From a virus (lineage: Duplodnaviria; Caudoviricetes): 64,000 bases of DNA. Location: the IMG/VR virus record IMGVR_UViG_3300027282_000088, positions 1 to 64,000 of that record; one strand, given 5' to 3'. A program made the position numbers and the translations under genes. The notes beneath the pieces are model-generated. The model was not told the origin of the DNA. It did no database searches and saw only the letters and a list, made by a program, of their open reading frames with translations. This document shows, piece after piece, positions 4,939 to 46,896 of this stretch. The number at the start of each line of letters is the position of its first letter. The stretch's first letter is position 1.

Positions 4939-5774
4939 TGATTGAACACCTGTCCACAATCACCGAATTGCCGATAGACGCGATCAAGGTCGAGGATCGG
5001 TTACGTGACACATCTCCAGACGGCATTGCCAATCTCGTTGAAGCTATAAGGGAAACCGGGTTCAGCGGCAGCATCCGGGTTCGCCGCAAGAAAGATGGAG
5101 ATTATCTCATAGACGGCGCCCACAGGCTTGCCGCGATGAGGGAGCTGGGCAAGACTTCAATTCCTGTCGATTTGGTTCGCTGTAACGACGCAGAAGCGCG
5201 ACTTATGGAGATCGACGGCAACCTCATGGGTCAACCCATGACCGTCCTTGATGACGCCTACTTTTTGGCCACGCGCCGGGAGATGATCCAGAAAATCCAT
5301 CCCGAAATGCGGCAAGGATCAGCTGGGGCTGCAGGACGTTGGATGCAACTGCATTTCAGTGCACTTGCACAAACCATCGCCACAGCTCGGGGCATCAAAA
5401 CCCGCCAAGTCTATAATATAATGGCAGCCGGAGCGTCTCTTTCACGCGAAGAATACGAAGCCCTTAAACACTCGCCGGCCCTCCGTCTGAATGACTTGCT
5501 GGCGCTCAGAAAGATCGTCGGCACAGAGGAGCGCAACTATGTTGTGGAAGCGCTCTCTGAGGGGCTGGTCAAGAATGCGGGGGCAGCACGAAAGGCTTAC
5601 CTTGCAGCACGCGGCGAGGCTCCAGCCCCGGCGAGCGATAAAGACCAGAAGCTGTCGCGCCTACTCGACGCTTGGGACCGCGCGGGCAAGCGCGAGCGCC
5701 GGGCATTCCTCGAGGAACGCGGCGCAGAGGTTGCGGCGTTGTTCGGCGAGCTTGACCAAGGGGATGCGGCATGA
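4938..5774 (+). CDS. ParB/Srx N-terminal domain protein
   Basis: YLIDGAHRLAAMRELG motif; directly upstream of transposase. Confidence 0.82.
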   Translation: MIEHLSTITELPIDAIKVEDRLRDTSPDGIANLVEAIRETGFSGSIRVRRKKDGDYLIDGAHRLAAMRELGKTSIPVDLVRCNDAEARLMEIDGNLMGQPMTVLDDAYFLATRREMIQKIHPEMRQGSAGAAGRWMQLHFSALAQTIATARGIKTRQVYNIMAAGASLSREEYEALKHSPALRLNDLLALRKIVGTEERNYVVEALSEGLVKNAGAARKAYLAARGEAPAPASDKDQKLSRLLDAWDRAGKRERRAFLEERGAEVAALFGELDQGDAA

Positions 5775-7894
5775 CTGGCCCGGCCCCTGCGCAGGAGTGG
5801 TGGAGTGCGGCTGAGCTGGCCGAGGCTGGGTTGCCCGACCTGCCCGGCACCAAGCGCAAGGTCAATCTGTTGGCGCAACGCGAGGGCTGGGCGCGGCACG
5901 CGGGTAAGGTCCGGCGGCGCAAGGGGGCCGGTGGCGGCGTTGAATATCACTGGAGCGTGCTGCCGTTGCGCGCCCGCATGCGACTTAGCGCCGATCTGGT
6001 CAAAGCCCCGGAGGAGAAATCCGGCAAAGACGAGGCGTGGGAACGCTATGCAGCGGCGGGCGACAAGGCCCGCACTGAGGCCGAGGCGCGGCTAGAGGCC
6101 GTTGCCGAGGTCGAATTGTTGGAAGGGGCCGGGTTGACCCGCTCCGCGGCCGTGCGCGAGGTCGCGCACAAGCTGGGACGGTCCGAGAAATCTCTCTGGA
6201 ATTACCTCGGGCAGGTCGAGGGAGCGGCCCCCGCCGACCGGCTGGCTTACCTGATCGACGGGCGCGCAGTGCGGCGTGCTCCCGCCCAACGGGGCGATAT
6301 CGACCCGGCCTTTCTGGCGCTGGTGCGCAGCGATTGGCTGCGCCTGTCGCAACCCTCGCTCACCAGTTGCTATGACCGCGCCGTGCGCGTCTGGACCTCC
6401 GAGCGGCGCAACAGCACCGTGCCTCCCCTTCACCAGGTGCGGCGCTGGATCAAGGCCAACGTCTCGGCACCGACAGAAACCTACCTGCGCAAGGGCGAGG
6501 AGGCACTCCGCCGCCTCTATCCCGCGCAGGTGCGCAGCAAGGCCTTCATGGTCCCGCTCGAATGCGTGCAGGGCGATTACCACAAGTTCGACGTGTTCGT
6601 GCGCTGGCCCGGCATCGACACGCCTGTGCGGCCGCAGATGATGGTCTGGTCGGACGTCTATTCCGGCAAGCTCTTGGCATGGCGTCTGTCGGACACGGCC
6701 AACAGCCACACCGTGCAGCTTGTGACCGGTGACCTGATCCGGACCTATGGCATCCCGCAATCAGTTCTGATCGACAATGGCCGGGAATTTGCCGCCAAGG
6801 CGATGACGGGCGGCACGCCAACCCGGTTTCGGTTCAAGGTCACGGACGAGGATATTCCCGGGCTGCTCCCGCTCTTGGGCGTGCATGTCCACTGGGCCAC
6901 GCCCTATTCCGGGCAATCCAAACCTATCGAGCGCGCCTTTCGCGACCTCTGCGACCGGGTGGCCAAACACCCCGCCTTTGACGGGGCCTATACGGGCAAC
7001 AAGCCAACGGCAAAGCCTGAAGATTACGGCTCCCGCGCCATCCCGCTCGACGAGTTCCGCCTCGTGTTGGAGGAAGAGCTTGCGCATCACAACGCCCGCC
7101 CCGGGCGGCGCAGTGAAGTTGCCATGGGACGGTCGTTCAATGAGGTCTTCAACGAGGGCTATGCGCGCGCCACGATCAAGCGCGCGACCGACGAGCAGCT
7201 GCGCCTCTGGCTCCTGCGGGCCGAGGGAGTGCGGGCCAAGACCAGCAACGGCGCGCTGAAACTCTACGACACGGAATACTGGTCCGAGTGGATGTACCGG
7301 ATCGCAGGGGAAAAGGTGGTAGCGCGGTTCGACGCGGATGATTTGACAGCCGGGCTCGAGGTTTATGATCTGGCGGGCCGGTACCTCGGCCATGCCAAGT
7401 GTCTCAAGGACGCCAAGTTCCGCGACGTTGGGGCCGCACGCGATCACAACCGAAAGCGCAAGACGTGGATGCGTGCGCAGCGCGACGAGGCCAAGGCCGC
7501 GCGCGAGTTGACGGCGGCAGAGGTGGCCGCACGTGTGCGCGCAGCCTCGGGGCTGGCGGCAGACGAACCCCTGCCCGAGGCGCAGGTGCATCAGCTGGTG
7601 ACACCGCATAAGGCCGCCCCAAAACGGCGGCGCGCGCAGAGCGTCGAGGAGATAGAGCGCGAAGCAGCGCTTGAGGCCCGCGTGACGCGCCTAGCTGAGC
7701 ATCGCGCACGCCCCGTTGAGGTCGATGAAGACGATCCCAAGGCCCTGTTTCTGCGTGCCCGCGCTCTTGAGAGCGCGCAGGCGGAAGGCGAGACACTCAC
7801 GCAGGCACAGGCCGATTGGCTGGCCGACTACCAACAGAGTTCCGACTACCGCGCCCAGCTGCGCATGGAGCGCCGCTTCGGTGCCCAAGAGTAA
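5771..7894 (+). CDS. Mu-type DDE transposase A
   Basis: N-terminal Mu HTH (WWSAAELA), GDYHKFD, LIDNGREF, KPIERAF, Mu transposase C-terminal region. Confidence 0.95.
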   Translation: MTGPAPAQEWWSAAELAEAGLPDLPGTKRKVNLLAQREGWARHAGKVRRRKGAGGGVEYHWSVLPLRARMRLSADLVKAPEEKSGKDEAWERYAAAGDKARTEAEARLEAVAEVELLEGAGLTRSAAVREVAHKLGRSEKSLWNYLGQVEGAAPADRLAYLIDGRAVRRAPAQRGDIDPAFLALVRSDWLRLSQPSLTSCYDRAVRVWTSERRNSTVPPLHQVRRWIKANVSAPTETYLRKGEEALRRLYPAQVRSKAFMVPLECVQGDYHKFDVFVRWPGIDTPVRPQMMVWSDVYSGKLLAWRLSDTANSHTVQLVTGDLIRTYGIPQSVLIDNGREFAAKAMTGGTPTRFRFKVTDEDIPGLLPLLGVHVHWATPYSGQSKPIERAFRDLCDRVAKHPAFDGAYTGNKPTAKPEDYGSRAIPLDEFRLVLEEELAHHNARPGRRSEVAMGRSFNEVFNEGYARATIKRATDEQLRLWLLRAEGVRAKTSNGALKLYDTEYWSEWMYRIAGEKVVARFDADDLTAGLEVYDLAGRYLGHAKCLKDAKFRDVGAARDHNRKRKTWMRAQRDEAKAARELTAAEVAARVRAASGLAADEPLPEAQVHQLVTPHKAAPKRRRAQSVEEIEREAALEARVTRLAEHRARPVEVDEDDPKALFLRARALESAQAEGETLTQAQADWLADYQQSSDYRAQLRMERRFGAQE

Positions 7895-7912: not shown

Positions 7913-8710
7913 ATGACCCCTTCCATTGCGCCCCTGCGAAACGTCGCAGCGCTGATCGGCCTCGTTGAGCGCGTCCAGTCCCGCGCCTTTGGCCTGCCCG
8001 GCATGGCCACGTTCTATGGCCCATCCGGCTGGGGCAAGACGACCGCCGTGACAGTCGCGGCCAATGAATATCAGGCCCATGTTGTCCAGGTCAAAGACTG
8101 CTGGACACCAACCTATCTGGCGCAAGCGATCCTGCGCGAGATCGGCCTGCCATCGCAACGCGGCGTGGCCGCCATGGTCGATGCAATCGGCGCACAGCTT
8201 GCACGCAATGACCGCCCGCTCATCATCGACGACGCGCAATATCTCCTGCGCAAGCGGATGATCGAGCTGGCCCGCGACATTTACGAGAGCTGTCAGGCCC
8301 CGGTCATTCTGGTCGGCGAAGAAAAGCTGCCGCAGGATCTGACCCGCTGGGAGAACATCCACAACCGCCAACTCGCATGGGAACCCGCCCTCGCCTGCAA
8401 CCTGCCGGACGCAGAAAAGCTCGCGCCAATCTACGCGGCTGGTATCGACGTCGGCGCTGACCTGCTCGGAGCCATCGTCGACGCCTCGGGCGGCTCGATC
8501 CGCCGGGTGGCGATCAATCTGGCACGTGCCAAGGAACTGGCCATGGGCCGGGGGCGGCGTCTGGCCGACCTCGAGCTTTGGGGCAACCGGGCCTTCGAGA
8601 CCGGGCAACCTCCTGCGGTGCGCCGTGTCGATGATTTCCGCCTCGCCGCCCCACTCGCCCCCGAAAAGATCGTGCCGCTCGCGGCTGAGAAGAAGGCGGG
8701 CCGGGCATGA
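7913..8710 (+). CDS. Transposition protein B, AAA+ ATPase
   Basis: Walker A GPSGWGKT, Walker B LIIDDAQ; follows transposase. Confidence 0.92.
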   Translation: MTPSIAPLRNVAALIGLVERVQSRAFGLPGMATFYGPSGWGKTTAVTVAANEYQAHVVQVKDCWTPTYLAQAILREIGLPSQRGVAAMVDAIGAQLARNDRPLIIDDAQYLLRKRMIELARDIYESCQAPVILVGEEKLPQDLTRWENIHNRQLAWEPALACNLPDAEKLAPIYAAGIDVGADLLGAIVDASGGSIRRVAINLARAKELAMGRGRRLADLELWGNRAFETGQPPAVRRVDDFRLAAPLAPEKIVPLAAEKKAGRA

Positions 8711-15955: not shown

Positions 15956-17441
15956 AAAAACCGGCACAATGCGGCTGCGCTCGGTTCGGCTGCGCAACCC
16001 GATGGAGCTGTCGGGCATCCAGCACGGGCGCGACATCACCCGACCATGGATCGGCCCGCTGCTGGAGCCGACGGACCCGATCCTGCGCACGCGCGGCGGC
16101 GGCAGTTTCGACATCTACAAGCCGATCCTGACCGACCCGCAGGTCAAATCAGTGATGACGCAGCGCATCTCGGCCGTGACCAGCCGGGAATGGGAAGTGG
16201 TGCCGGGCGAGGAAACGGCGGCGGGCAAACGCGCGGCCGACTGGCTGCGCGACGAGCTTTCGGCCATGAAATTCGACCGCCTGACCGAGAAGATGCTCTG
16301 GGGCCTCTTCTATGGCTATTCCGTCGCCGAACAGATGTTTCGCCGCGACGGGCAGCTTTGGGGCTGGGAGGAAATCCGCGTGCGCGACCGGGTGCGGTTT
16401 CGCTTTGATGAGGAGTGCGGCCTGCGCCTGCTGACCATGTCCAACATGCTCACAGGCGAGGAAATGCCACCCGAGAAGTTCTGGGTCTTCTCGACCGGCG
16501 CGGATCACGACGACGAACCTTACGGCTTAGGCCTCGCGCATTGGCTCTACTGGCCGGTCTGGTTCAAACGCAACGGGCTGAAGCTCTGGCTGATCGCCCT
16601 CGACAAATTCGGCATGCCGACCGCACGCGGCAAATACCCGTCGCAAGCCACTGAGGCCGAGCAAAAGAAACTGCTAGAGGCCGTCATGGCCATACGCTCA
16701 GAGGCCGGGATCATCATTCCCGAGGGCATGGATATTGAGCTTTTGTCAGCGCCCTCGGGGGCAAGTTCGCTGGATTACCAGAAACTGCACGACACGATGG
16801 ATGCCGCCATCTCGAAGATCGTGCTGTCCCAGACCATGACCACCGACAATGGCTCCAGTCGGTCGCAAGCCGAGGTGCATGACGACGTGGGCGACGCCGT
16901 CAAGAAATCCGACGCGGATCTCGTGTGCCAATCCTTCAACGAAGGGCCGGTGGCGCGGCTTTGCGGTTTCAACTTCCCCGGTGTCGCGCCGCCAAGGGTG
17001 TGGCGCAAGATGGAGGACCCGGAGGATACAACCGCCGCCGTCGACCGCGATGAAAAGCTGCATCGGATCGGCTGGCAGATGACCGAAGACCGCGTCAAGG
17101 AAATCTACGGCGACGGCTATGAGCGCGCCACGCCCCCGGAGAACACACCGCCAGACGAGGACACGCCCGAGGCCGGTTTCGCCGAACATGACGGCGCGCT
17201 CGACGGCCCTGTGGGCGATCTGGCAGACCGGTTGGCGAACGAGGCGTCGGTGCCGATGCTGGCGATGCTCGAACAAATCGAGGCGATGCTGGAGACGTCG
17301 ACCAGCCTTGCGGAGTTCCGCGAGCGGCTGCTGGCCGGGTTTCCGGACCTGGACGATGCAGCACTCCGCGACGTGATCGCGTCGGCCCTCACGGCGGCGC
17401 ATGCCGGAGGCCGCGCCGCGTTGGAGGAAGATAGTGGCTGA
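15948..17441 (+). CDS. Portal protein (DUF935 / Mu gp29-like)
   Basis: LDKFGMP, KIVLSQTMTT motifs. Confidence 0.92.
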   Translation: MARKTGTMRLRSVRLRNPMELSGIQHGRDITRPWIGPLLEPTDPILRTRGGGSFDIYKPILTDPQVKSVMTQRISAVTSREWEVVPGEETAAGKRAADWLRDELSAMKFDRLTEKMLWGLFYGYSVAEQMFRRDGQLWGWEEIRVRDRVRFRFDEECGLRLLTMSNMLTGEEMPPEKFWVFSTGADHDDEPYGLGLAHWLYWPVWFKRNGLKLWLIALDKFGMPTARGKYPSQATEAEQKKLLEAVMAIRSEAGIIIPEGMDIELLSAPSGASSLDYQKLHDTMDAAISKIVLSQTMTTDNGSSRSQAEVHDDVGDAVKKSDADLVCQSFNEGPVARLCGFNFPGVAPPRVWRKMEDPEDTTAAVDRDEKLHRIGWQMTEDRVKEIYGDGYERATPPENTPPDEDTPEAGFAEHDGALDGPVGDLADRLANEASVPMLAMLEQIEAMLETSTSLAEFRERLLAGFPDLDDAALRDVIASALTAAHAGGRAALEEDSG

Positions 17442-18693
17442 TCTCGGCGCGACGTTTCGCCGTCCCTTCCGCGAGCAGATCGCCGCCTTTCGCCTGCGCC
17501 TGGGCGATCTCGTGCCGACGGCGCGGTGGGATGACATCACCCTCGCCCAGCACGACCGGGCTTTCATGGTGGCAGGGGCACAGAAGGCCGACCTCTTGGC
17601 GGATCTGGCGGCCTCTGTTGATAAGGCCATCTCGCAGGGCACGTCTCTGGAAGAGTTCCGCCGCGATTTTCGCGCCACCGTCACCCGACGCGGCTGGCAC
17701 GGCTGGACCGGCGAAGGCAGCACGCGCGGCGAGGCATGGCGCACGCGGGTGATCTACCGCACCAACATCGCGACCAGCTACGCGGCCGGGCGGATGGCGC
17801 AGCTCATCGAGGGCAATTTTGCGTTCTGGGTCTACCAGCACGGCGGCTCAACTGAGCCGCGCCTGATCCATCTTGGCTGGGACGGGCTGGTCTTGCCACC
17901 TGATCACCCGTTCTGGATCACGCATGGCCCGCCCAACGGCTGGGGCTGCAGCTGCTACGTGATCGGCGCGCGCTCTGAGGACGGCGCACGTCGTCGCGGC
18001 GGCGACCCGGACAAGCGCCTGCCCGACGACTGGCAATCCCGGGATCCGCGCACCGGCGCGCCGAAAGGGATCGACAAGGGCTGGGATTACACGCCCGGGG
18101 CCAGCACCGTGGACGAAATTCGCACGATGGCGGCCAAGGTCGTCGATTGGCGGTATAACCTCGCGGTGGCCTACATGGCCAGCCTCCCGGACCGGACCCG
18201 CGATCTTCTGGTCGAAGGATACCGAGGCCTGCCGTCATTGGCTGACAATATCCGGCGCTACGCAGCGCGCGTCGAGACCGCGAACACCCAAGCCGCACGG
18301 AAGACCATTTCCGAGCGGGAGCCGATCCAGTCCCTCGGGTTGATGACTACCACTCAGGCCCGGCTCAACCGCGAGGGTGCGCGGCGCGATCTAGACCGCT
18401 ACGACGTGGCCGTTGACGCGGATTCCATCCGTCATATTTTTGCACGCCACGGGAACCCAGAGCGCGAGGCCTCCCGTGGGCAGATAGCGGTCACCCCGGA
18501 AGACTTGGGACGGTTGCCCGAGATATTCCAGCGCCCAGACAGCTTTGAATGGACGGATGCCCGTAGCGTGCAGTCTCGGGTCTTGCGTCTGACTAAGACT
18601 ATCGGCGCACGGCGCTATGTCGCGCATTTCGTCGCGCGACCGCGACGCCAGCGGCTCGTACTCTTGACCTATTGGGTGGAAAATATCGGCTGA
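17434..18693 (+). CDS. MuF minor head protein with C-terminal PBECR-like nuclease domain
   Basis: MuF PPNGWGCSC motif; C-terminus SIRHIFARHG...RGQIAVTPEDLGRLPEIFQRPD. Confidence 0.82.
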   Translation: MADLGATFRRPFREQIAAFRLRLGDLVPTARWDDITLAQHDRAFMVAGAQKADLLADLAASVDKAISQGTSLEEFRRDFRATVTRRGWHGWTGEGSTRGEAWRTRVIYRTNIATSYAAGRMAQLIEGNFAFWVYQHGGSTEPRLIHLGWDGLVLPPDHPFWITHGPPNGWGCSCYVIGARSEDGARRRGGDPDKRLPDDWQSRDPRTGAPKGIDKGWDYTPGASTVDEIRTMAAKVVDWRYNLAVAYMASLPDRTRDLLVEGYRGLPSLADNIRRYAARVETANTQAARKTISEREPIQSLGLMTTTQARLNREGARRDLDRYDVAVDADSIRHIFARHGNPEREASRGQIAVTPEDLGRLPEIFQRPDSFEWTDARSVQSRVLRLTKTIGARRYVAHFVARPRRQRLVLLTYWVENIG

Positions 18694-35952: not shown

Positions 35953-36171
35953 ATGAGGCGATTCGATTTGGAAGGTCTAGAACTGCGTTGCTGCGCATGC
36001 AGCCGTTTGCTATTTAAATATCAGAGAGGGGCGCAAATATCCGGCGTCTCGATCAAATGCCCGCGCTGCCGGGCGATGAATATCCTGAGGCCAAGAGCCC
36101 TTCCCCAAACGCGCGATGCGCAGAGAGAAGGAGCCAAACTTGACCAGATCGACCACACTCCCGAAACCTGA
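35953..36171 (+). CDS. com: Com-family zinc-finger regulator
   Basis: RCCACSRLLF...IKCPRC aligns with Mu Com RCKNCNKLLF...IRCPRC; located at right end of late genes. Confidence 0.85.
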   Translation: MRRFDLEGLELRCCACSRLLFKYQRGAQISGVSIKCPRCRAMNILRPRALPQTRDAQREGAKLDQIDHTPET

Positions 36172-36322
36172 GCTGCCGCCCGGTGCGCCGGGCCTGCCCA
36201 AAGGCGTCCGCTACCGGCGGCAATATGGCGTCATCGTCCTCCTCGAGGACGAGGTGGCTCAAATCAACGCCTTCGGCCGGTTGCGCCGCCAAGGCTTCAA
36301 ATGCCGCGTGGTGGTCACATGA
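36140..36322 (+). CDS. 60-aa protein (TTG start inside com)
   Basis: GAAGGAG RBS then TTG; YGVIVLLEDEVAQINAFGRLRRQGFKCRVV; stop overlaps next ATG. Confidence 0.7.
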   Translation: MTRSTTLPKPELPPGAPGLPKGVRYRRQYGVIVLLEDEVAQINAFGRLRRQGFKCRVVVT

Positions 36323-37428
36323 AGCTCGCCATCCACCACGCCAGCCCCATCCCGGATACCTACCGCGCCGCCCGGGTCTCCAGCCTCTTCAACGTCGAGG
36401 GCGACGCGGATTTCCGCATCGAGGTCGAGGCCGATCTGGCAGCACAGCCCTGGCAGATAGGCCTCATCGTCGGCCCCTCTGGCAGCGGGAAATCCTCGCT
36501 CGCCCGCGAAGCCTTCGGAGCGGAGCTTGACCCGCGCCCGTGGCCCGAGGGCGCGCTGATCGACGCGATTGACCCCGAGGGCGAATTCGACGCCGTCGCG
36601 GCCGCCCTCTCCGCCGTGGGCCTCGGCACGGTGCCCAGCTGGCTGCGCCCCTATCCCCACCTCTCCACCGGCGAGCAGTTCCGGGCCGAGCTCGCGCGCA
36701 TTCTGGCCGAGCGGCCGAGCTTTGCCATTCTCGACGAGTTCACCTCGACCATTGACCGGCGCGTGGCCCAGATCGGGGCGGCAGCCTTTGCCAAGGCATG
36801 GCGGCGGGGCTCTGGCCAGTTCGTCGCCGTCACCTGTCACGAGGACGTCGTGTCCTGGTTGCAGCCCGATTGGGTGATCGACACCCGCCGGGCCGAGTTT
36901 CGCTGGAGGCGTCTTCGACGGGCACCCCGCATTGCCATGGACATTCACCAGACAGACGGCTCCTTCTGGCCCGCCTTTGAGCCGCATCACTACCTGAAGC
37001 TGCCCCGCATGATCGCGGCCAATTACTACGTGGGCTTCGTCGACGGCGCACCGGTGGCGCATCTGGCCGTCTCGACCCGGCCGGGGCTGGTCGAAGGCCG
37101 CGCCTGCCGCCTTGTCGTCATGCCTGAGTGGCAGGGCGCGGGGCTGGGGCTGCGCTTTCTCAACGAGGTTTGCGCGCTCTGGCGGCGCGGCGTGAACCGC
37201 TACGACAAACCGATGCCGATGCTGTTTCACACCTCGCATCCCGGCCTCGCCGCCGCCCTGCGCCGCGATCCCCTCTGGGCACAGGTTTCGGCCATCCTCT
37301 ATGCCGAGGCCAAGGAACGCAGCATGAAGACCCTCGCCGCCGCCCGGGCACGCAAAGGCCTCAAACCCGCCGGGAGCGGCTACGGCGGGCATTTCCGCGC
37401 GGTGCAGGGCTTTCGGTATGTCGAGTGA
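36319..37428 (+). CDS. ABC-type ATPase fused to GNAT acetyltransferase-like domain (mom position)
   Basis: GPSGSGKS, LSTGEQFR, ILDEF, VTCH; C-terminal RLVVMPEWQGAGLG GNAT motif A; no TM partner. Confidence 0.85.
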   Translation: MKLAIHHASPIPDTYRAARVSSLFNVEGDADFRIEVEADLAAQPWQIGLIVGPSGSGKSSLAREAFGAELDPRPWPEGALIDAIDPEGEFDAVAAALSAVGLGTVPSWLRPYPHLSTGEQFRAELARILAERPSFAILDEFTSTIDRRVAQIGAAAFAKAWRRGSGQFVAVTCHEDVVSWLQPDWVIDTRRAEFRWRRLRRAPRIAMDIHQTDGSFWPAFEPHHYLKLPRMIAANYYVGFVDGAPVAHLAVSTRPGLVEGRACRLVVMPEWQGAGLGLRFLNEVCALWRRGVNRYDKPMPMLFHTSHPGLAAALRRDPLWAQVSAILYAEAKERSMKTLAAARARKGLKPAGSGYGGHFRAVQGFRYVE

Positions 37429-37755: not shown

Positions 37756-38652
37756 ATGTACACAGATAGAACTCGCGACCACCACAAGGATGCGGCGATT
37801 GCTCGCCTTTTTTCGGCCGGCGTTGTTAGAGAACTTGCTGAAAAAGGCAGCTCTGCCAAGTTTAGCTCGTTGGTAAATCAAGCTGAACTATTCGAACTTC
37901 AAGAAGTTCGCACCGTCGGTGACGCGTTTGACTTTGGCTTCGCTCAATTACGCCGAAGTGGCCTCCGAAATGAATACATTTATCAGTCGGCTATAGTTCA
38001 AAACGTGCTCTTAGGTAAACATTCCCTGAAAACAGCCAGTATGGTGAGAGAGTTTCGAACTGGAGCTAGCAGAGCGGATGTTGTCATATTGAACGGCACA
38101 TCTACAGTCTATGAGGTTAAATCCGAACGTGACAGTCTCCAGAGACTTGAGAAACAACTAGAAGACTACGCCGATATATTTGCTCGTACGTATGTAATTG
38201 CTTCAGAACGTCACATCAACGCGATAAAAGAGCTCGCGCCGCTTCACGTAGGCGTTATGTATCTGAAAAGATGGAATAGCATAAGCACAGTTAGAGAAGC
38301 CGTCGATCGGCCAGACGAAGTTAAACCACTCAGCATTCTGGGGGCTCTTCGAAGAACTGAGGCAATTCGTATTCTCAAACACATAGGCAAGCCTGTACCT
38401 TCCGTGCCAAACACTCAGATGTTTAGCGCGCTTTCAGAACTCTACGAACGCCTTGATCCAAGAGAAGTCCATGACGCAATGGTTCAGGTGCTCAGGCAGA
38501 GCCGAACACAACATTCTTTCCAGAGACTCGTCGAAGATCTACCTTTATCGTTGCATGCCGCCGCATTGATGTACAACTTAAGGCTAAGTGACGGGGCAAA
38601 ACTGGTGCAAGCCATTAAAACTCCAATCGAACAATCAATATTTTGGAGTTAG
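37756..38652 (+). CDS. sce7726-family protein, PD-(D/E)XK-like
   Basis: RADVVILNGTSTVYEVKSERDSLQRL motif. Confidence 0.75.
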   Translation: MYTDRTRDHHKDAAIARLFSAGVVRELAEKGSSAKFSSLVNQAELFELQEVRTVGDAFDFGFAQLRRSGLRNEYIYQSAIVQNVLLGKHSLKTASMVREFRTGASRADVVILNGTSTVYEVKSERDSLQRLEKQLEDYADIFARTYVIASERHINAIKELAPLHVGVMYLKRWNSISTVREAVDRPDEVKPLSILGALRRTEAIRILKHIGKPVPSVPNTQMFSALSELYERLDPREVHDAMVQVLRQSRTQHSFQRLVEDLPLSLHAAALMYNLRLSDGAKLVQAIKTPIEQSIFWS

Positions 38653-38660
38653 GATGTTAA

Positions 38661-39608
38661 ATGTACTTTCCATACTTTCGCGGTAAGCAATTTGAGCTCA
38701 TCACTATTCGAGATACCGCAGAATTGCTGGCGAAGGCTGGTTTCATACCCATAATTGAACCCGTAAAAGAAGCACTGAAGGGGTTGACCCGTGCGCTTGA
38801 CGCGGTTTGTGAAAGCGGTGGGCATGCGATCGTAATAGTGAATCCTCAACATGGAAGCTTAGCTGGAAATGGAGCCGCAATATCGACTTTTCTCAAGGAA
38901 GGCTATCTTGAGACCGACAACGTAAGCGCTGGCATCTTATTGACGGATACGATGACGGTAATAGATGCCATGACGCTTTTTGAAGCTCATACAAATCATA
39001 GGCCGTATTTTATTCACTCGGGCTTTCTGCAGGAAAACGGCCTCGCAGAAAAACTTGGGGACGAGCTCAGTCATACACGACATGTCTTCATCGAACAGGC
39101 TAGCCCTGTATTATACCGAAAGAAGTTCAGCAGTGCTTCTCGAGTGCTGCTTCGGGATGGATTCAACAAACAGCGGAATGCTAGTTATCCTGCTGTTGAG
39201 CTTTTTTCAGATTTGCATGTAACATTTAATTCCGAGTTGGGTTTGAATGGTTTTGGAGACTTCCTAACTGTCGGGGATGACTATAGTGAGACAGGTGGAC
39301 CTGCTTATGCCGTCGCCATTCACATGACGTTCATTGATCCAGACAAAGACGATCAGATGTACGTGCGCCATTTTGTGTCAGATTCAAATAGCACTCCAAC
39401 GGATCCTGCTGGAAAGTTCGCAGAAGCGCTCTCTAAGCTGGTCACGAAGTTCAATCACGGAACATCAAACCTGTTTCATGGTAAGGCTTTATCTGAGTTC
39501 CTAGAGTTGCATGCAAAACAACACTTTCCAGGGCTGGGTCAGGTTAAAAAACTTTCGATGATCCATCACATTGAGACACTGGCAGACTATTTTTCTGAGG
39601 CGAATTGA
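38661..39608 (+). CDS. sce7725-family protein
   Basis: MYFPYFRGKQFEL start, GFGDFLTVG...GGPAYAVAIH, HFPGLGQVKKLSMIHH. Confidence 0.78.
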   Translation: MYFPYFRGKQFELITIRDTAELLAKAGFIPIIEPVKEALKGLTRALDAVCESGGHAIVIVNPQHGSLAGNGAAISTFLKEGYLETDNVSAGILLTDTMTVIDAMTLFEAHTNHRPYFIHSGFLQENGLAEKLGDELSHTRHVFIEQASPVLYRKKFSSASRVLLRDGFNKQRNASYPAVELFSDLHVTFNSELGLNGFGDFLTVGDDYSETGGPAYAVAIHMTFIDPDKDDQMYVRHFVSDSNSTPTDPAGKFAEALSKLVTKFNHGTSNLFHGKALSEFLELHAKQHFPGLGQVKKLSMIHHIETLADYFSEAN

Positions 39609-40672
39609 TGCCAAATAAATGCTGCCCAAACTGTTTTGGGGACCGTGGACTCGAAAAACACCTGTTTCAATTTCTGGCTACAGAATTGGCGAAAGGGGAT
39701 TGTAATTATTGCGGAGACCCTTCGGACAAACTTGTTGAACCGTCGGAGCTTTCTGATGTTTTTGAGCTGCTAGTCGAATCTTATGAAGAAGCTGAAGGCG
39801 GTGTAAGTCTTGTGGCAAACTTCAAAAAGGACTGGGGGCTTTTCTCTCATGCCAAAATGGACGAAGCACACGCCAAAGAACTACTTTCCGATATTTTAGA
39901 TGATGGAGAGATCGTTCGAAAGTCGTTTAGACCCTTGACCGCGCCGGATGACTCTAAGGTCGGTGATTGGCTTGAACTTCGTCAAGAACTTCGCTTCAAG
40001 AATAGGTATTTTCTAGACGAAAAAATTAAGGAAGAACGGTTGAAGCTTTTGCTCGAGTTCTTGCTTTCAGCACCGCTAGAAAAGATCTGGTTTCGAGCCA
40101 GGATCTCGCCTGATAATCAGCCTTTCGATGCCCAATCGATGGGAGCGCCACCAAAAGGTTCCGCTTCCCACGGAAGAGCCAACCCCGCAGGCATTCCGTA
40201 TCTCTATCTTGCATCTGATGAGAACACAGCGATTTCGGAAATACGCCCTCATACGGGTGAATTCGCGACCGTTGCAGAATTTGAGCTGCGTGAAGGACTT
40301 ACAATCGTCGATTTACGATCACCTAAGACACTCGTCTCTCCTTTTATCTGTGGATCTTCCGATGAGATTGTTCAGCTTAGGGCAGACTTGCCGTTCCTAG
40401 AAAGTCTGGGCCACGAACTCACTCGTCCGGTGCTGCCCCGCAGCGCCGCAACTGACTACGTTCCAAGTCAATATCTCTGCGAGTTTATAAAGAAAAAAGG
40501 ATTTGACGGTGTACTTTATACGAGTTCTGTGGGGACGGGAAAGAACTTGGCCCTCTTCGATACCGAAGCGGCAAATTGCATACGAGTATCCGTTTTTAGT
40601 GTCGCTAGCGTTGCAGTCACCGCTCATGAGTTTCGCACACAGGTTCGCCCGTTGGAGCGCGTTGAAAATTAG
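39608..40672 (+). CDS. RES-domain protein with N-terminal Cys motif
   Basis: WFRAR, GRANPAGIPYLY, AISEIRP, YVPSQYLCEFIK, FDGVLYTSS; N-terminal CPNC...CNYC. Confidence 0.88.
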   Translation: MPNKCCPNCFGDRGLEKHLFQFLATELAKGDCNYCGDPSDKLVEPSELSDVFELLVESYEEAEGGVSLVANFKKDWGLFSHAKMDEAHAKELLSDILDDGEIVRKSFRPLTAPDDSKVGDWLELRQELRFKNRYFLDEKIKEERLKLLLEFLLSAPLEKIWFRARISPDNQPFDAQSMGAPPKGSASHGRANPAGIPYLYLASDENTAISEIRPHTGEFATVAEFELREGLTIVDLRSPKTLVSPFICGSSDEIVQLRADLPFLESLGHELTRPVLPRSAATDYVPSQYLCEFIKKKGFDGVLYTSSVGTGKNLALFDTEAANCIRVSVFSVASVAVTAHEFRTQVRPLERVEN

Positions 40673-40813: not shown

Positions 40814-40863
40814 TTGCTGTAAACTTCACTGTAATTCACTGCAAACTTCGCTGTCACGCTACA
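40814..40863 (-). repeat. Right end of prophage 1: terminal CA and two tandem transposase-site-like repeats
   Basis: Reverse complement TGTAGCGTGACAGCGAAGTTTGCAGT GAATTACAGTGAAGTTTACAGC (22-bp period). Confidence 0.82.
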
Positions 40864-40868
40864 ACAGT
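40864..40868. other. 5-bp spacer ACAGT between the two prophage ends (probable shared target duplication)
   Basis: CTACA|ACAGT|TGTAG; 5 bp is the Mu-family target duplication length. Confidence 0.75.
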
Positions 40869-41002
40869 TGTAGGGTTACACTCTAGTTTACAGTCATGCC
40901 GGAAGACCCAGAATGAGGCGGGATGAAGCCGGATAGGTCAATGAAATAAGGCATATTTCTGCGCGGACGCGGGGCTGCGGTTGGCATGGGTGAAGTTTGC
41001 AG
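40869..41002 (+). repeat. Left end of prophage 2: L1-like site, about 90-bp gap, L2-like site
   Basis: TGTAGGGTTACACTCTAGTTTACAGTCA matches the right end at 20/28 positions; GGTGAAGTTTGCAGT ending at 41002. Confidence 0.78.
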
Positions 41003-43908: not shown

Positions 43909-44773
43909 AATGCGCCTGATCGAGACACGGGAGATGGCTGTTGCTGAAATCGTCATAGAGGACCGGCTGCGTCCTGTAGACGAGGTTGGTATCTCGGCCA
44001 TCCTCATGACAATCGACGAAGGTGGCTCTACCACCGATCCGATTGATGTGCGCCGCGTACGACGCAAAGGCACCGTAGTCTATCGCCTTATTGACGGCGC
44101 GCATCGGATTGAGGTCGCAAAGCGGCTCGGGAACGTCACGATCCTTGCGTCTGTCTACGACGGGACGGACGCCGATGCCCGCCTTATGGAGATCGAGCGC
44201 AATCTGGCCCGTGCTGAGATGAAGCCGATAGATCGCGCGGTCTTTCTGCTGGAGTACAAAGAGGCGTACGAAAAGAAGCACCCCGAAGCCCGCGCGGCGA
44301 TTGGTGAGGCTCTTGTTGCCAAGCGGTGGGATACGACGGGCACGATGCCCGTCGTATCTTTCGCCGTGAAAGTCGGGCAAATGACGGGACAGGATGAGAG
44401 CACGGTTCGGCGTCAGATCAGGGCTGTGAAGGCTCTGGAGGCGGATGAAGTTCGTGCAATCCAGTTGGCACCCCAATACCTCGGATACAAGGATATAGCA
44501 GAAATCGGCAAGATTTCTGATCCTGGAGAACGTAGCGAAGTCATGAAGGCGCTCTCTTCCGGGGAGGCAAAGACAGTCAACGCTGCCCGTAAGGCTTACC
44601 GTGTTGCACGGGGCGAAGCCCCGGCCCCGGCAAGTCCCAAGGACGCAACCCTGTCACGCCTCTTGGACGCATGGGACCGCGCGGGCAAGCGCGAGCGCAT
44701 GGCGTTTCTGGAGGAGCGCGGCGCGGAGGTTGCGACGCTGTTCGGGGAACTTGACCAAGGGGATGCAGCATGA
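43901..44773 (+). CDS. ParB/Srx N-terminal domain protein
   Basis: YRLIDGAHRIEVAKRLG motif. Confidence 0.82.
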   Translation: MSEMRLIETREMAVAEIVIEDRLRPVDEVGISAILMTIDEGGSTTDPIDVRRVRRKGTVVYRLIDGAHRIEVAKRLGNVTILASVYDGTDADARLMEIERNLARAEMKPIDRAVFLLEYKEAYEKKHPEARAAIGEALVAKRWDTTGTMPVVSFAVKVGQMTGQDESTVRRQIRAVKALEADEVRAIQLAPQYLGYKDIAEIGKISDPGERSEVMKALSSGEAKTVNAARKAYRVARGEAPAPASPKDATLSRLLDAWDRAGKRERMAFLEERGAEVATLFGELDQGDAA

Positions 44774-46896
44774 CAGGCCCGGCCCCTGCGCAGGAATGGT
44801 GGAGCGCGGCAGAGCTGGCGGAGGCCGGGCTTCCGGATCTCCCGAGCACAAAGCGCAAGATCAACGAACTGGCACAGCGTGATGGCTGGGCGCGACACGC
44901 GGGGAAGGCCCGGCGGCGCAAGGGGGTAGGCGGCGGCATCGAATATCACTGGAGCGTTCTGCCATTGCGCGCCCGCATGCGGCTAAGTTCCAGCCTGGTC
45001 AAAACCGCACCCGTTCAGCAGGGGCAAGACGCGGCATGGGATCGATATGCGGCGGCGGGTGACAAGGCCCGCGCTGAAGCCGAGGCGCGGCTGGCAGCCA
45101 TCGCCGAGGTCGAGTTACTGGAAGGGGCCGGGCTGACACGGTCGGCGGCGGTGCGGGAGGTCGCACGCAAGTCGGGACGCGCCGAGAAATCGCTCTGGAA
45201 TTATCTCTCGCACATCGAGGGCGTCGCACGCGCCGACCGGCTGGCCTATCTGATCGACGGGCGGGCGTTGCGGCGGGCACAAGGATCCCGACTGGATACA
45301 GACCCGGCCTTTCTGGCGCTCGTGCGCAGTGACTGGCTGCGCCCGTCCCAGCCCTCTCTCACAAGCTGCTATGACCGTGCAGTGCGCGTCTGGACGTCCG
45401 AGCGACGCAACAGTGTCGTGCCGCCGCTGCATCAGGTGCGGCGCTGGCTCAAGTCCAGCGTATCGGCCCCCACTGAAATCTACTTGCGCAGGGGCGAAGA
45501 GGCATTGCGCCGCCTCTATCCCGCGCAGGTCCGCAGCAAGGCATTCATGACCCCGCTCGAATGCGTGCAGGGCGACTATCACAAGTTCGACGTCTTCGTG
45601 GACTGGCCCGGCTACGACAAGCCCGTGCGCCCGCAGATGATGGTCTGGTCGGACGTCTATTCCGGCAAACTCTTGGCGTGGCGACTATCCCCGACGGCCA
45701 ACAGCCACACCGTGCAGCTGGTGACCGGCGATCTGATCCGGACCTATGGCATCCCGCAGTCGGTTCTGATCGACAACGGCCGGGAATTCGCCGCCAAGGC
45801 GATGACGGGCGGCACGCCGACCCGGTTTCGGTTCAAGATCACCGACGAAGATATCCCCGGCCTCCTTCCGCTCCTAGGTGTCGAAATCCATTGGGCCACG
45901 CCCTATTCGGGGCAATCCAAGCCCATCGAGCGCGCGTTTCGCGATCTCTGCGACCGGGTGGCCAAGCACCCGGCCTTTGACGGGGCCTATACCGGCAACA
46001 GACCGGAAGCCAAACCGGAGGACTATGGCTCCCGCGCCGTCCCGCTCGACGAGTTCCGCCTCGTATTGGAGGATGAGCTCGAGCATCACAACGCCCGGCC
46101 CGGGCGGCGCAGTGAAGTGGCCATGGGACGCTCGTTCAATGAGGTGTTCAACGCGGGCTATGCCAAGGCGACAGTCAAGCGCGCGACGGACGAACAGCTG
46201 CGCATGTGGCTCCTGCGCGCCGAGGGCGTGCGGGCCAAGACCGGAAACGGCGCGCTGAAGCTCTATGACACGGAATACTGGTCAGAGTGGATGTACCGGA
46301 TCGCAGGCGAAAAGGTGGTTGCGCGGTTCGACGCGGATGATTTGGGAGCCGGGCTCGAGGTCTATGATCTCACGGGCCGCTATTTGGGCCATGCCGCCTG
46401 TCTCGAGGCCGCCAAATTCATCGACGTCGAAGCCGCACGCGACCATGCGCGCAAGCGCGGGGCGTGGGCGAAGGCACAGAAGGCCGAGGCCAAGGCTGCG
46501 CGCGAGTTGACGGCAGCCGAGGTGGCAGCGCGGGTGCGTGCGGCCTCTGGCCTCGCAGCCAGTGAACCCTTGCCAGAAGCGCAAGTTCATCAGCTGGTGA
46601 CGCCGCACGCCGCCGCACCCAAGCGGCGTCGGCGCGCTCAAAGTGCCGAGGAGGTCGAGCATCTGGCCGAGATCGAGGCCCGCGTGATGCGGCTTGAGGA
46701 GCACCGCGTGCGGCCCGCCGAGCCCGCCGACGACGATCCCGAAATCATGTTCGCCCGCGCCCGCGTCCTTGAGCGCGCACAGGCGGACGGAGAGGCGCTG
46801 ACACAGGCGCAGGCCGACTGGCTGGCCGACTATCAGCAGAGTTCAGACTATCGCGCCAAACTACGCATGGCGCGTCTCTTTGGCACCCAAGAATAA
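44770..46896 (+). CDS. Mu-type DDE transposase A
   Basis: Same motifs as 5771-7894, with many substitutions. Confidence 0.95.
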   Translation: MTGPAPAQEWWSAAELAEAGLPDLPSTKRKINELAQRDGWARHAGKARRRKGVGGGIEYHWSVLPLRARMRLSSSLVKTAPVQQGQDAAWDRYAAAGDKARAEAEARLAAIAEVELLEGAGLTRSAAVREVARKSGRAEKSLWNYLSHIEGVARADRLAYLIDGRALRRAQGSRLDTDPAFLALVRSDWLRPSQPSLTSCYDRAVRVWTSERRNSVVPPLHQVRRWLKSSVSAPTEIYLRRGEEALRRLYPAQVRSKAFMTPLECVQGDYHKFDVFVDWPGYDKPVRPQMMVWSDVYSGKLLAWRLSPTANSHTVQLVTGDLIRTYGIPQSVLIDNGREFAAKAMTGGTPTRFRFKITDEDIPGLLPLLGVEIHWATPYSGQSKPIERAFRDLCDRVAKHPAFDGAYTGNRPEAKPEDYGSRAVPLDEFRLVLEDELEHHNARPGRRSEVAMGRSFNEVFNAGYAKATVKRATDEQLRMWLLRAEGVRAKTGNGALKLYDTEYWSEWMYRIAGEKVVARFDADDLGAGLEVYDLTGRYLGHAACLEAAKFIDVEAARDHARKRGAWAKAQKAEAKAARELTAAEVAARVRAASGLAASEPLPEAQVHQLVTPHAAAPKRRRRAQSAEEVEHLAEIEARVMRLEEHRVRPAEPADDDPEIMFARARVLERAQADGEALTQAQADWLADYQQSSDYRAKLRMARLFGTQE

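What the first reader, a model, noticed from the sequence alone, without database searches (positions are those of the whole stretch)
35953..37428. com followed by a small ORF and an ABC-ATPase/GNAT fusion in place of mom: candidate alternative DNA-modification system
Seen: a clear Com zinc finger, a 60-aa ORF whose TTG start lies inside com, then a 369-aa protein. That protein has complete ABC-ATPase motifs (GPSGSGKS, LSTGEQFR, ILDEF, VTCH) fused to a GNAT motif A (RLVVMPEWQGAGLG), with no membrane partner. Known: in Mu, com overlaps mom and activates its translation; Mom is a GNAT-fold enzyme that modifies adenine against restriction. Inference: this is an ATP-coupled acyl-transfer module under Com control that modifies phage DNA or another substrate late in infection. 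The chemistry would differ from Mom. ABC-GNAT fusions may have been noted computationally, but I know of no functional characterisation.
Basis: partly seen in the sequence, partly recalled or inferred. Interest (0 to 1): 0.82.

Follow-up and report, generated by a model that had tools for sequence, protein, structure and literature searches.

The report
Com-controlled ABC-ATPase/GNAT phage modification module
At the spot where phage Mu keeps its DNA-protecting mom gene, this Mu-like Roseovarius prophage carries a small adaptor gene and an ATPase-acetyltransferase fusion from a very large, functionally untested phage family that most likely puts an acyl mark on phage DNA.

Summary
The operon is com (35953-36171), a 60-aa ORF starting at a TTG inside com (36140-36322), and a 369-aa ABC-ATPase/GNAT fusion (36319-37428) that overlaps the small ORF by ATGA. 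All catalytic motifs are intact.

The enzyme is not a Mom relative. It belongs to a large family: PHROG 11143, at least 4544 clusters at 90% identity. No function has been shown. Aravind's group predicted in 2013 that it acylates a DNA base.

- **The small ORF derives from ParB.** It matches the C-terminal mini-domain of the ParB-like protein that precedes the enzyme in most phages. Some proteins fuse ParB, the mini-domain, ABC and GNAT in one chain.
- **The com slot holds DNA modifiers.** In 80 com loci, the downstream gene was a DNA methyltransferase or Mom in 63 and this enzyme in 9.
- **The formyltransferase-like partner is missing.** Many relatives carry it; this copy does not.

DNA modification is the best reading (about 0.55), but the substrate, acyl donor and product are untested. 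The same module has been noted elsewhere in this scan.

The parts
35953..36171 (+). com: Cys4 zinc-ribbon protein, the presumed translational activator of the downstream genes
   Evidence: Pfam Zn_ribbon_Com 3.9e-8 and phrog_6417 6.7e-11. It aligns with Mu Com, with the CxxC...CxxC motifs conserved. It is the only com in the record.
36086..36142 (+). mRNA leader inside the com 3' end: conserved TGAGGCC / GAGCCCTTC block, a GCGC hairpin, a Shine-Dalgarno AAGGAG and the TTG start. It is a possible Com target and a structure that hides the ribosome-binding site.
   Evidence: In the minimum-free-energy fold, GCCCUUC pairs with the GAAGGAGC that holds the Shine-Dalgarno sequence. The z-score is only -0.5. 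The blocks are conserved across 11 loci with little covariation. This part is weak and inferred.
36140..36322 (+). 60-aa small protein. Its last ~37 residues form a beta-alpha-beta mini-domain homologous to the C-terminal domain of the ParB-like partner proteins of this enzyme family.
   Evidence: phrog_28816 1.2e-8. tblastn with the Gordonia ParB-like protein, residues 150-200, hits window 36182-36316. Alignment A4. The mini-domain lies directly upstream of the enzyme in 77 of 80 viral loci. It is fused in one chain with ParB and ABC-GNAT in P0147, P0154 and others.
36319..36909 (+). ABC-type ATPase domain of the fusion protein (residues 1 to about 197)
   Evidence: Walker A S54/G55/G57/K58, signature L115/S116/G118, Walker B D139/E140 and H-loop H174 are invariant in 105 sequences. 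AF2 model pLDDT 92.4, pTM 0.87. Foldseek's best matches are ABC nucleotide-binding domains.
36910..37428 (+). GNAT acyltransferase domain of the fusion protein (residues 198-369)
   Evidence: The domain model has pLDDT 86.8. It matches canonical acetyl-CoA GNATs at VIA Z 13-15 and Foldseek TM 0.55-0.62. Q272, G273 and G275 of the motif-A loop, plus R264, V266 and P269, are at least 90% conserved.

Best explanation
This is the late, Com-gated DNA-modification operon of a Mu-like Roseovarius prophage. It fills the role that mom fills in Mu.

Proposed mechanism, with each step marked:
1. Com is translated first. It binds the mRNA near its own 3' end and frees the ribosome-binding site of the small ORF. 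This is inferred from homology and gene arrangement.
2. Ribosomes finishing the 60-aa ORF restart at the overlapping ATGA, so adaptor and enzyme are made together. The sequence arrangement is shown; the coupling is inferred.
3. The enzyme dimerises through its ABC domain with ATP between the two subunits. The 60-aa protein is what remains of the C-terminal domain of a ParB-like DNA-loading partner, and it helps the enzyme engage DNA. This is inferred.
4. The GNAT domain transfers an acyl group to an exocyclic amine of a base in double-stranded phage DNA. The donor is most likely an acyl-CoA, because the CoA pyrophosphate loop is intact. ATP hydrolysis drives clamping, base exposure or release. 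This is inferred.
5. The mark protects packaged DNA from host restriction. This is inferred.

This copy lacks the formyltransferase-like third gene of many relatives. Its product would therefore be the simpler, one-step form.
For: - **Position:** the module follows the tail-fibre genes of a prophage with Mu transposase A, a B-like AAA ATPase and MuF. The record holds no Mom or DNA methyltransferase.
- **What follows com:** in 80 diverse viral com loci, the downstream gene was a D12 adenine methyltransferase in 22, an N6/N4 methyltransferase in 22, a C5 methyltransferase in 11, Mom in 7, a ParB-methyltransferase in 1 and ABC-GNAT in 9. Every identified occupant of the slot acts on DNA.
- **ParB link:** a ParB_N domain protein precedes the enzyme in 56 of 80 viral loci. 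Eight of the 150 listed representative relatives fuse ParB, mini-domain, ABC and GNAT in one chain. A phage ParB-like protein is an experimentally required activator of a DNA base-modifying dioxygenase (PMC13229309).
- **Genome position in ParB-type phages:** the pair lies directly before terS/terL in the loci examined. Strep phage Javan141 has DNA methyltransferase genes a few genes upstream.
- **Conservation:** both catalytic centres are conserved across 105 sequences. One homologue carries an intein in the ATPase.
- **Literature:** the family was independently predicted to acylate a DNA base (PMC7824862 section 3.4.7, citing Iyer et al. 2013).
- **Precedent:** Mom shows that a GNAT-fold enzyme can modify double-stranded DNA (PMC13219725).
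Against: - No result here or in the searched literature shows the substrate, the donor or any modified base.
- The nearest structural neighbours of the GNAT domain acetylate proteins or small molecules: RimI, Naa50, SpeG.
- No DNA-binding domain is recognisable in this ParB-less version.
- The RNA structure that would mediate Com control is not statistically supported (z -0.5; little covariation).
- Gene neighbourhood is indirect evidence. The com loci were retrieved with a pattern taken from an alignment rich in ABC-GNAT-linked Coms, which could inflate the ABC-GNAT share. It would not inflate the methyltransferase share.
Confidence: 0.55

Rival explanations
1. Protein acyltransferase. The enzyme acetylates a phage or host protein late in infection, for example a nucleoid protein, a packaging or virion protein, or a host defence protein. 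The ABC domain would act as an ATP-dependent clamp or switch.
For: The closest folds are protein N-acetyltransferases such as RimI, Naa50 and Ard1. The genes lie next to terminase genes in ParB-type phages. Phage GNATs that acetylate host proteins are known, for example Rac of phiKMV-like phages, as reviewed in PMC7824862.
Against: It does not explain why the gene shares the com slot with methyltransferases and Mom only. It also does not explain the constant pairing and fusion with a ParB-type domain. A shared GNAT fold does not indicate the substrate, as the Mom authors stress.
Confidence: 0.2
2. RNA or tRNA acyltransferase working like TmcA/NAT10. An ATPase-coupled GNAT would acetylate a base in tRNA or mRNA, or an aminoacyl-tRNA, to reprogramme or shut down translation.
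For: TmcA/NAT10 are the only characterised ATPase-GNAT fusions, and they acetylate cytidine in RNA (established knowledge; TmcA is named among tRNA-acting GNATs in PMC13219725). A formyltransferase-like partner in relatives recalls Met-tRNA formyltransferase.
Against: There is no sequence match to the TmcA families, and no tRNA-binding domain. ParB partners and the com slot point to DNA. The ATPase is ABC-type, not helicase-type.
Confidence: 0.1
3. Toxin-antitoxin or abortive-infection pair, or an anti-defence enzyme acting on a small molecule. The GNAT would be the toxin or effector and the 60-aa protein its neutraliser.
For: A small upstream ORF translationally coupled to a GNAT resembles the TacAT/AtaRT layout. 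An automated pipeline labelled the Porphyromonas small ORF 'acr candidate'.
Against: The small ORF is the C-terminal domain of ParB-like proteins and is often fused in the same chain as the enzyme. That does not fit an antitoxin. There are no matches to known antitoxin or defence families beyond generic ABC similarity. The module lies in the late structural operon under com.
Confidence: 0.08
4. Ordinary ABC transporter ATPase subunit, as most database names say.
For: Source names such as 'ABC transporter ATP-binding protein'. The ABC_tran Pfam hit.
Against: No permease or binding-protein gene lies nearby in any locus examined. All NCBIfam transporter matches are 30-37 bits against cut-offs of 130-900. 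The helical subdomain is shortened. The GNAT domain is fused and conserved. The family is phage-borne.
Confidence: 0.02

Closest known systems
Phage ABC-ATPase/GNAT module predicted to acylate a DNA base (Iyer, Zhang, Burroughs, Aravind 2013 NAR, as cited in Iyer et al. 2021 Viruses, PMC7824862); PHROG 11143
   Same: Same protein family: phrog_11143 at 2.2e-131 over the full length, with the same ABC plus GNAT architecture and phage-borne.
   Different: The published description is a computational prediction only. The 2013 paper itself could not be read here. The window's version is Com-gated, has only the C-terminal mini-domain of the ParB partner as a separate 60-aa gene, and lacks the formyltransferase-like gene.
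com-mom of phage Mu (Mom: GNAT-fold, Gly-tRNA-dependent N6-carbamoylmethyl-adenine formation; PMC13219725)
   Same: Same genomic position after the tail-fibre genes. A Com zinc finger is present. The next gene starts inside com. The effector has a GNAT fold. The presumed purpose is late protection of DNA.
   Different: There is no sequence relationship to Mom (Pfam Mom not hit; hhalign probability 0.1%). The canonical CoA-binding loop is present, so an acyl-CoA donor is more likely than charged tRNA. An ABC ATPase is fused. An extra small ORF sits between com and the enzyme.
TmcA / NAT10 (ATPase-coupled GNAT making N4-acetylcytidine in RNA)
   Same: It is the only characterised case of an NTPase domain fused to a GNAT that acetylates a nucleobase with acetyl-CoA plus ATP. 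It is therefore the best mechanistic analogue.
   Different: Its ATPase is helicase-like, not ABC. Its target is RNA. It has a tRNA-binding domain. There is no sequence match.
ParB-dependent phage thymine dioxygenases (5mYOX with ParB-like activator; PMC13229309)
   Same: A phage ParB-like protein with an N-terminal nucleotide-binding domain and a C-terminal domain is encoded beside a post-replicative DNA base-modifying enzyme and is required for its activity.
   Different: The enzyme class differs: Fe/2-oxoglutarate dioxygenase versus ABC-GNAT. In the window the ParB N-terminal domain is absent.

Membership tests
Mom family (Pfam PF25680) | Sequence match to the Mom profile | tested here: not met
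   No Mom hit at E <= 1 in Pfam. hhalign of the GNAT-domain profile against Mu Mom gave probability 0.1%. The same Pfam model scores 9.4e-76 on a true Mom that follows com in L142.
Mom family (Pfam PF25680) | GNAT fold | tested here: met
   AF2 domain model has pLDDT 86.8. It matches solved GNATs at VIA Z 13-15 and TM 0.55-0.62.
Mom family (Pfam PF25680) | Gene begins inside com and depends on Com for translation | tested here: inconclusive
   It is the small ORF, not the enzyme, that begins inside com (36140 versus com stop 36171). The enzyme is coupled by ATGA. Dependence on Com is not testable here, and RNA structure support is weak.
Mom family (Pfam PF25680) | Gly-tRNA(Gly) as acyl donor and the essential helix-turn-helix-like insertion | not testable with these tools
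   The donor cannot be read from sequence. The window's GNAT keeps a QGAGLG CoA-type loop. It has an extra helix and a loop between the last two strands, whose equivalence to Mom's insertion is unknown.
ABC ATPase superfamily | Walker A, ABC signature, Walker B with catalytic Glu, and H-loop His | tested here: met
   GPSGSGKS, LSTGE, ILDE(F) and TCH are invariant or nearly so in 105 sequences. Pfam ABC_tran 4.2e-9, above the cut-off. The fold matches ABC nucleotide-binding domains.
ABC transporter (membrane transport system) | Partner permease, and a match to a transporter equivalog above its cut-off | tested here: not met
   No permease gene lies near the enzyme in the window or in the loci examined. 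NCBIfam scores are 30-37 bits against cut-offs of 130-900.
GNAT superfamily | beta-alpha core fold and motif A Q/R-x-x-G-x-G/A pyrophosphate-binding loop | tested here: met
   The secondary-structure order fits a GNAT. Q272, G273 and G275 are at least 90% conserved. Structural matches. Pfam GNAT hits are below the cut-offs.
Phage ABC-GNAT module (PHROG 11143 with its partners) | Full-length match to the family profile | tested here: met
   phrog_11143 at 2.2e-131, residues 2-368 on profile positions 2-349 of 357.
Phage ABC-GNAT module (PHROG 11143 with its partners) | Mini-domain (beta-alpha-beta) encoded directly upstream | tested here: met
   Window 36182-36316 matches the ParB C-terminus. 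The mini-domain is present in 77 of 80 viral loci.
Phage ABC-GNAT module (PHROG 11143 with its partners) | ParB_N domain on the upstream partner | tested here: not met
   The window's small ORF has no ParB_N part. ParB_N is present in 56 of 80 viral loci. The window belongs to the ParB-less, com-linked variant.
Phage ABC-GNAT module (PHROG 11143 with its partners) | Formyl_trans_N-like gene directly downstream (only in the clade nearest the window) | tested here: not met
   tblastn with three such proteins finds nothing in the window. The gene is present in relatives L017 and L020 and in 61 of the 80 best genome loci.
TmcA/NAT10 | Helicase_RecD-type ATPase, GNAT_acetyltr_2 and tRNA_bind_2 domains | tested here: not met
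   None of these Pfam families is hit at E <= 1.
GNAT toxin-antitoxin (TacAT/AtaRT type) | Small RHH/DUF1778 antitoxin and a stand-alone ~170-aa GNAT toxin | tested here: not met
   The small ORF has no Pfam hit and is a ParB C-terminal domain homologue. The GNAT is fused to an ATPase. PADLOC gives only generic ABC similarity.

The most novel reading that the evidence does not exclude
The module installs a DNA modification never demonstrated before: ATP-dependent, acyl-CoA-driven acylation (for example N-acetylation) of an exocyclic amine of a base in double-stranded phage DNA. It would be carried out by an ABC-clamp/GNAT enzyme guided by a ParB-derived mini-domain. Relatives with the third gene would add a second, formyl-type step. 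If so, one of the most widespread phage DNA-modification systems has gone unrecognised.
Probability: 0.45. Interest if true: 0.8.

Novelty: new member of a known kind. Interest (0 to 1): 0.55.

Why it matters
The family is very large. It has at least 4544 clusters at 90% identity, 506 clusters at 50% identity with E <= 1e-30, and matches in at least 587 bacterial species genomes across many phyla. It occurs in cultivable phages of Burkholderia, Pseudomonas, Gordonia, Streptococcus, Oenococcus and Porphyromonas. No function has been shown, and databases mostly name it a transporter subunit.

If it acylates DNA, that would add a new chemistry to phage anti-restriction. It would also add a second nucleobase-modifying use of the GNAT fold after Mom, and a second case of ParB-type proteins steering a DNA-modifying enzyme. 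Such marks would affect restriction digestion, sequencing-based detection of modifications, and phage host range.

The com-slot survey and the ParB-relic finding give simple, testable handles.

Tried and rejected
- **Complex prediction:** the 60-aa protein with the enzyme returned no verdict (score 0.01). It is not evidence either way.
- **Solved structures:** a sequence search of the PDB with the family profile found only generic ABC domains. No family member has a solved structure.
- **Full-model Foldseek:** the list was filled by ABC nucleotide-binding domains. The GNAT domain was therefore folded and searched separately. Mom (8BV8) did not appear among the rows shown for the GNAT domain, which does not exclude a relationship.
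- **RNA folding of the com 3' region:** z-score -0.5, and the alignment fold showed little covariation. No claim of a proven Com operator is made.
- **Literature:** searches for any experimental work on the fusion found none. The 2013 NAR paper and the 2020 ABC classification paper are not held.
- **ESM Atlas search with the small ORF:** only unnamed clusters.
- **Left end of prophage 1:** not located. The end motif GAAGTTTRCAG occurs only at 40817-41002.
- **Transporter reading:** rejected.
- **Toxin-antitoxin reading:** rejected because the 'antitoxin' is fused into the enzyme chain in relatives.
Full report
**What is there.** The window holds two Mu-like prophages in tandem. Mu-type transposase genes lie at 5771-7894 and 44770-46896 (DDE_2, HTH_Tnp_Mu and Mu-transpos_C domains). 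A B-like AAA ATPase lies at 7913-8710 and a MuF protein at 17401-18693. The record is an IMG/VR virus record of 79,888 bases. The nearest bacterial matches are Roseovarius genomes at 96-99% identity.

After the tail-fibre genes of prophage 1 come three genes:
- com, 35953-36171.
- A small ORF whose TTG start at 36140 lies 32 nt before the com stop. An AAGGAG sits 6 nt upstream.
- A 369-aa ORF, 36319-37428, whose ATG overlaps the small ORF's TGA.

Com matches Pfam Zn_ribbon_Com (3.9e-8) and aligns with Mu Com. It matches ABC_tran (4.2e-9) and, weakly, GNAT families. It matches PHROG 11143, of unknown function, at 2.2e-131 over its full length. The small ORF matches PHROG 28816. The TTG start aligns with ATG or GTG starts in relatives.

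**The enzyme.** In an alignment of 105 family members at 31-76% identity to the window's protein, these positions are invariant or at least 90% conserved:
- Walker A, the ABC signature, the Walker B Asp-Glu and the H-loop His.
- The GNAT beta-4 strand (R264, V266, P269).
- The Q272-G273-x-G275 pyrophosphate-binding loop.
- Several Trp and Arg residues.

AlphaFold2 gives a confident two-domain model (pLDDT 92.4, pTM 0.87). The N-terminal domain resembles ABC nucleotide-binding domains. The C-terminal 172 residues were folded alone (pLDDT 86.8). They form a canonical GNAT at VIA Z 13-15 and TM 0.55-0.62 to RimI, Naa50, SpeG and similar acetyl-CoA enzymes.

The domain is not a Mom relative. There is no Pfam Mom hit, and hhalign against Mu Mom gives a probability of 0.1%. 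No family member has a solved structure. The transporter names given by databases are not supported. NCBIfam scores are 30-37 bits against cut-offs of 130-900, and no permease gene lies nearby.

**Size and spread of the family.**
- At least 4544 clusters at 90% identity.
- 4888 clusters at 50% identity with E <= 1e-3, of which 506 reach 1e-30.
- 74 deposited phage genomes from Burkholderia, Pseudomonas, Porphyromonas, Gordonia, Streptococcus, Oenococcus, Nonlabens and others.
- At least 587 matches in species-representative bacterial genomes of many phyla.
- One homologue carries an intein in the ATPase domain.

**The small ORF is a relic of ParB.** In Gordonia, Streptococcus and Oenococcus phages, the gene before the enzyme encodes a ParB-like protein. 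That protein's last ~40 residues align with the window's small ORF. tblastn with the Gordonia protein, residues 150-200, hits window 36182-36316. The upstream partners carry Pfam ParB_N (4e-11, 1.8e-9, 2.2e-7).

Eight of the 150 representative relatives listed are single chains of about 570-620 aa. They read ParB N-domain, mini-domain, ABC, GNAT. This fusion argues that the small protein is a working partner of the enzyme.

In 80 diverse viral loci:
- The mini-domain lies directly upstream of the enzyme in 77.
- It is joined to a ParB N-domain in 56.
- It stands alone behind com in 8.
- It stands alone without com or ParB in the rest.

In the ParB-type loci examined, the pair lies directly before the small and large terminase genes.

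A maximum-likelihood tree splits the family into two deep clades. One clade is almost entirely ParB-type. The other holds all com-type, all mini-only and all formyltransferase-linked members.

**The third gene.** In phiE255, Komp_PAO1_1, Porphyromonas phages, Gordonia phages and the window's relatives L017 and L020, a ~200-aa Formyl_trans_N protein follows the enzyme. In Gordonia it is mis-named a tRNA methyltransferase. It is present in 28 of 80 viral loci and 61 of the 80 best genome loci.

The window and its closest relatives lack it. After 37428 the G+C content drops. A three-gene low-GC cargo (37756-40672) fills the space up to Mu-end-like repeats at 40817-40894. A close relative has different cargo in the same slot before a conserved end sequence.

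**Is it tied to com, and what does that say?**

Among the 80 best genome loci, 36 have com plus the mini-domain before the enzyme. A further 21 have neither com nor ParB.

The survey was also run in the other direction. I took 80 viral loci that encode a Com homologue and classified the gene that follows:

| Gene after com | Loci |
|---|---|
| D12-class adenine DNA methyltransferase | 22 |
| N6/N4 DNA methyltransferase | 22 |
| C5 cytosine DNA methyltransferase | 11 |
| ABC-GNAT | 9 |
| Mom | 7 |
| ParB-methyltransferase | 1 |
| Short or unclassified | 8 |

Every identified occupant of the com slot modifies DNA. The record itself has no Mom or DNA methyltransferase. This is the strongest argument here that the enzyme acts on DNA.

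One caveat applies. The search pattern came from an alignment rich in ABC-GNAT-linked Coms. This may inflate the 9 but not the 63.

**Mechanism.** The best-supported reading is a Com-gated late operon. Com relieves a block on the small ORF's ribosome-binding site. ATGA coupling delivers the enzyme. The ABC domain dimerises with ATP and, with the ParB-derived mini-domain, engages DNA. The GNAT transfers an acyl group, probably from an acyl-CoA because the CoA loop is intact, to a base.

Three precedents support this:
- Mom shows that a GNAT can act on double-stranded DNA (PMC13219725).
- TmcA/NAT10 show ATPase-coupled nucleobase acetylation (established knowledge).
- ParB-dependent phage thymine dioxygenases show a ParB-like activator of a DNA modifier (PMC13229309).

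All steps after the gene arrangement are inferred. The RNA evidence for Com control is weak. The anti-Shine-Dalgarno pairing GCCCUUC/GAAGGAGC appears in the minimum-free-energy fold, but the z-score is -0.5 and covariation is slight.

[quoted passage not shown] 2013). I found no experimental study.

The window's copy is therefore a new member of a described but uncharacterised kind. It is the Com-gated, ParB-less and formyltransferase-less arrangement.

The same module has been noted several times in this scan on other DNA, and one earlier follow-up reached a similar reading. New here are the identification of the small ORF as a ParB C-terminal relic, the fused forms, the two-way com survey and the clade structure.

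**Verdict.** DNA modification has confidence about 0.55. The rivals are protein acylation (0.2), an RNA or tRNA target (0.1), a toxin-antitoxin or anti-defence role (0.08) and a transporter subunit (0.02). Interest is moderate to high: the family is widespread and testable in cultivable phages, but it has already been predicted and this instance adds no direct functional evidence.

Noticed in passing
window 37756-40672: A low-GC (about 46%) three-gene cargo lies between the enzyme gene and the Mu-end-like repeats. The third protein has a RES domain (7.2e-21). The first matches PADLOC model PDLC02989 'cll' (4.5e-19). A close relative (L015) has different low-GC cargo in the same slot before a conserved end sequence (window 40798-40951 matches L015 at 83%). 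The slot looks like a variable moron or defence site.
   Followed up: partly
G000:C1:1760-2059 (L009:1594-1833), upstream of the window: A degraded copy of the last ~100 residues of the enzyme (61% identity, one stop inside) lies in the DNA flanking prophage 1. It may be the remnant of an older Mu-like prophage right end.
   Followed up: partly
window 40817-41002: The motif GAAGTTTRCAG occurs twice on the minus strand (40817, 40839) and once on the plus strand (40992). This fits the right end of prophage 1 abutting the left end of prophage 2. No matching motif was found at the presumed left end of prophage 1.
   Followed up: partly
window 17401-18693: The MuF-like protein of prophage 1 carries a C-terminal PBECR3 (barnase/EndoU/colicin-like nuclease) domain (3e-9). 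This is a polymorphic-toxin-type extension.
   Followed up: no
P0251 (homologue, 715 aa): One family member has an intein (Hint plus LAGLIDADG homing endonuclease) inserted in the ATPase domain.
   Followed up: no
L001:6119-6733, L002:6113-6730, L004:1805-2452, L017:5067-5666: The formyltransferase-like partner genes keep the HPSLLP motif and a downstream Asp. They read G-Y/F-H where PurN/Fmt have the catalytic N-x-H, so the usual Asn is missing and the chemistry may differ. In Gordonia phages the gene is annotated 'tRNA-methyltransferase', which the homology does not support.
   Followed up: partly
L131:2876-4351: In one viral contig, com is followed by a 491-aa protein with a ParB-like N-terminal part and a methyltransferase domain. 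This links the com slot and ParB-guided modification in a single gene.
   Followed up: no
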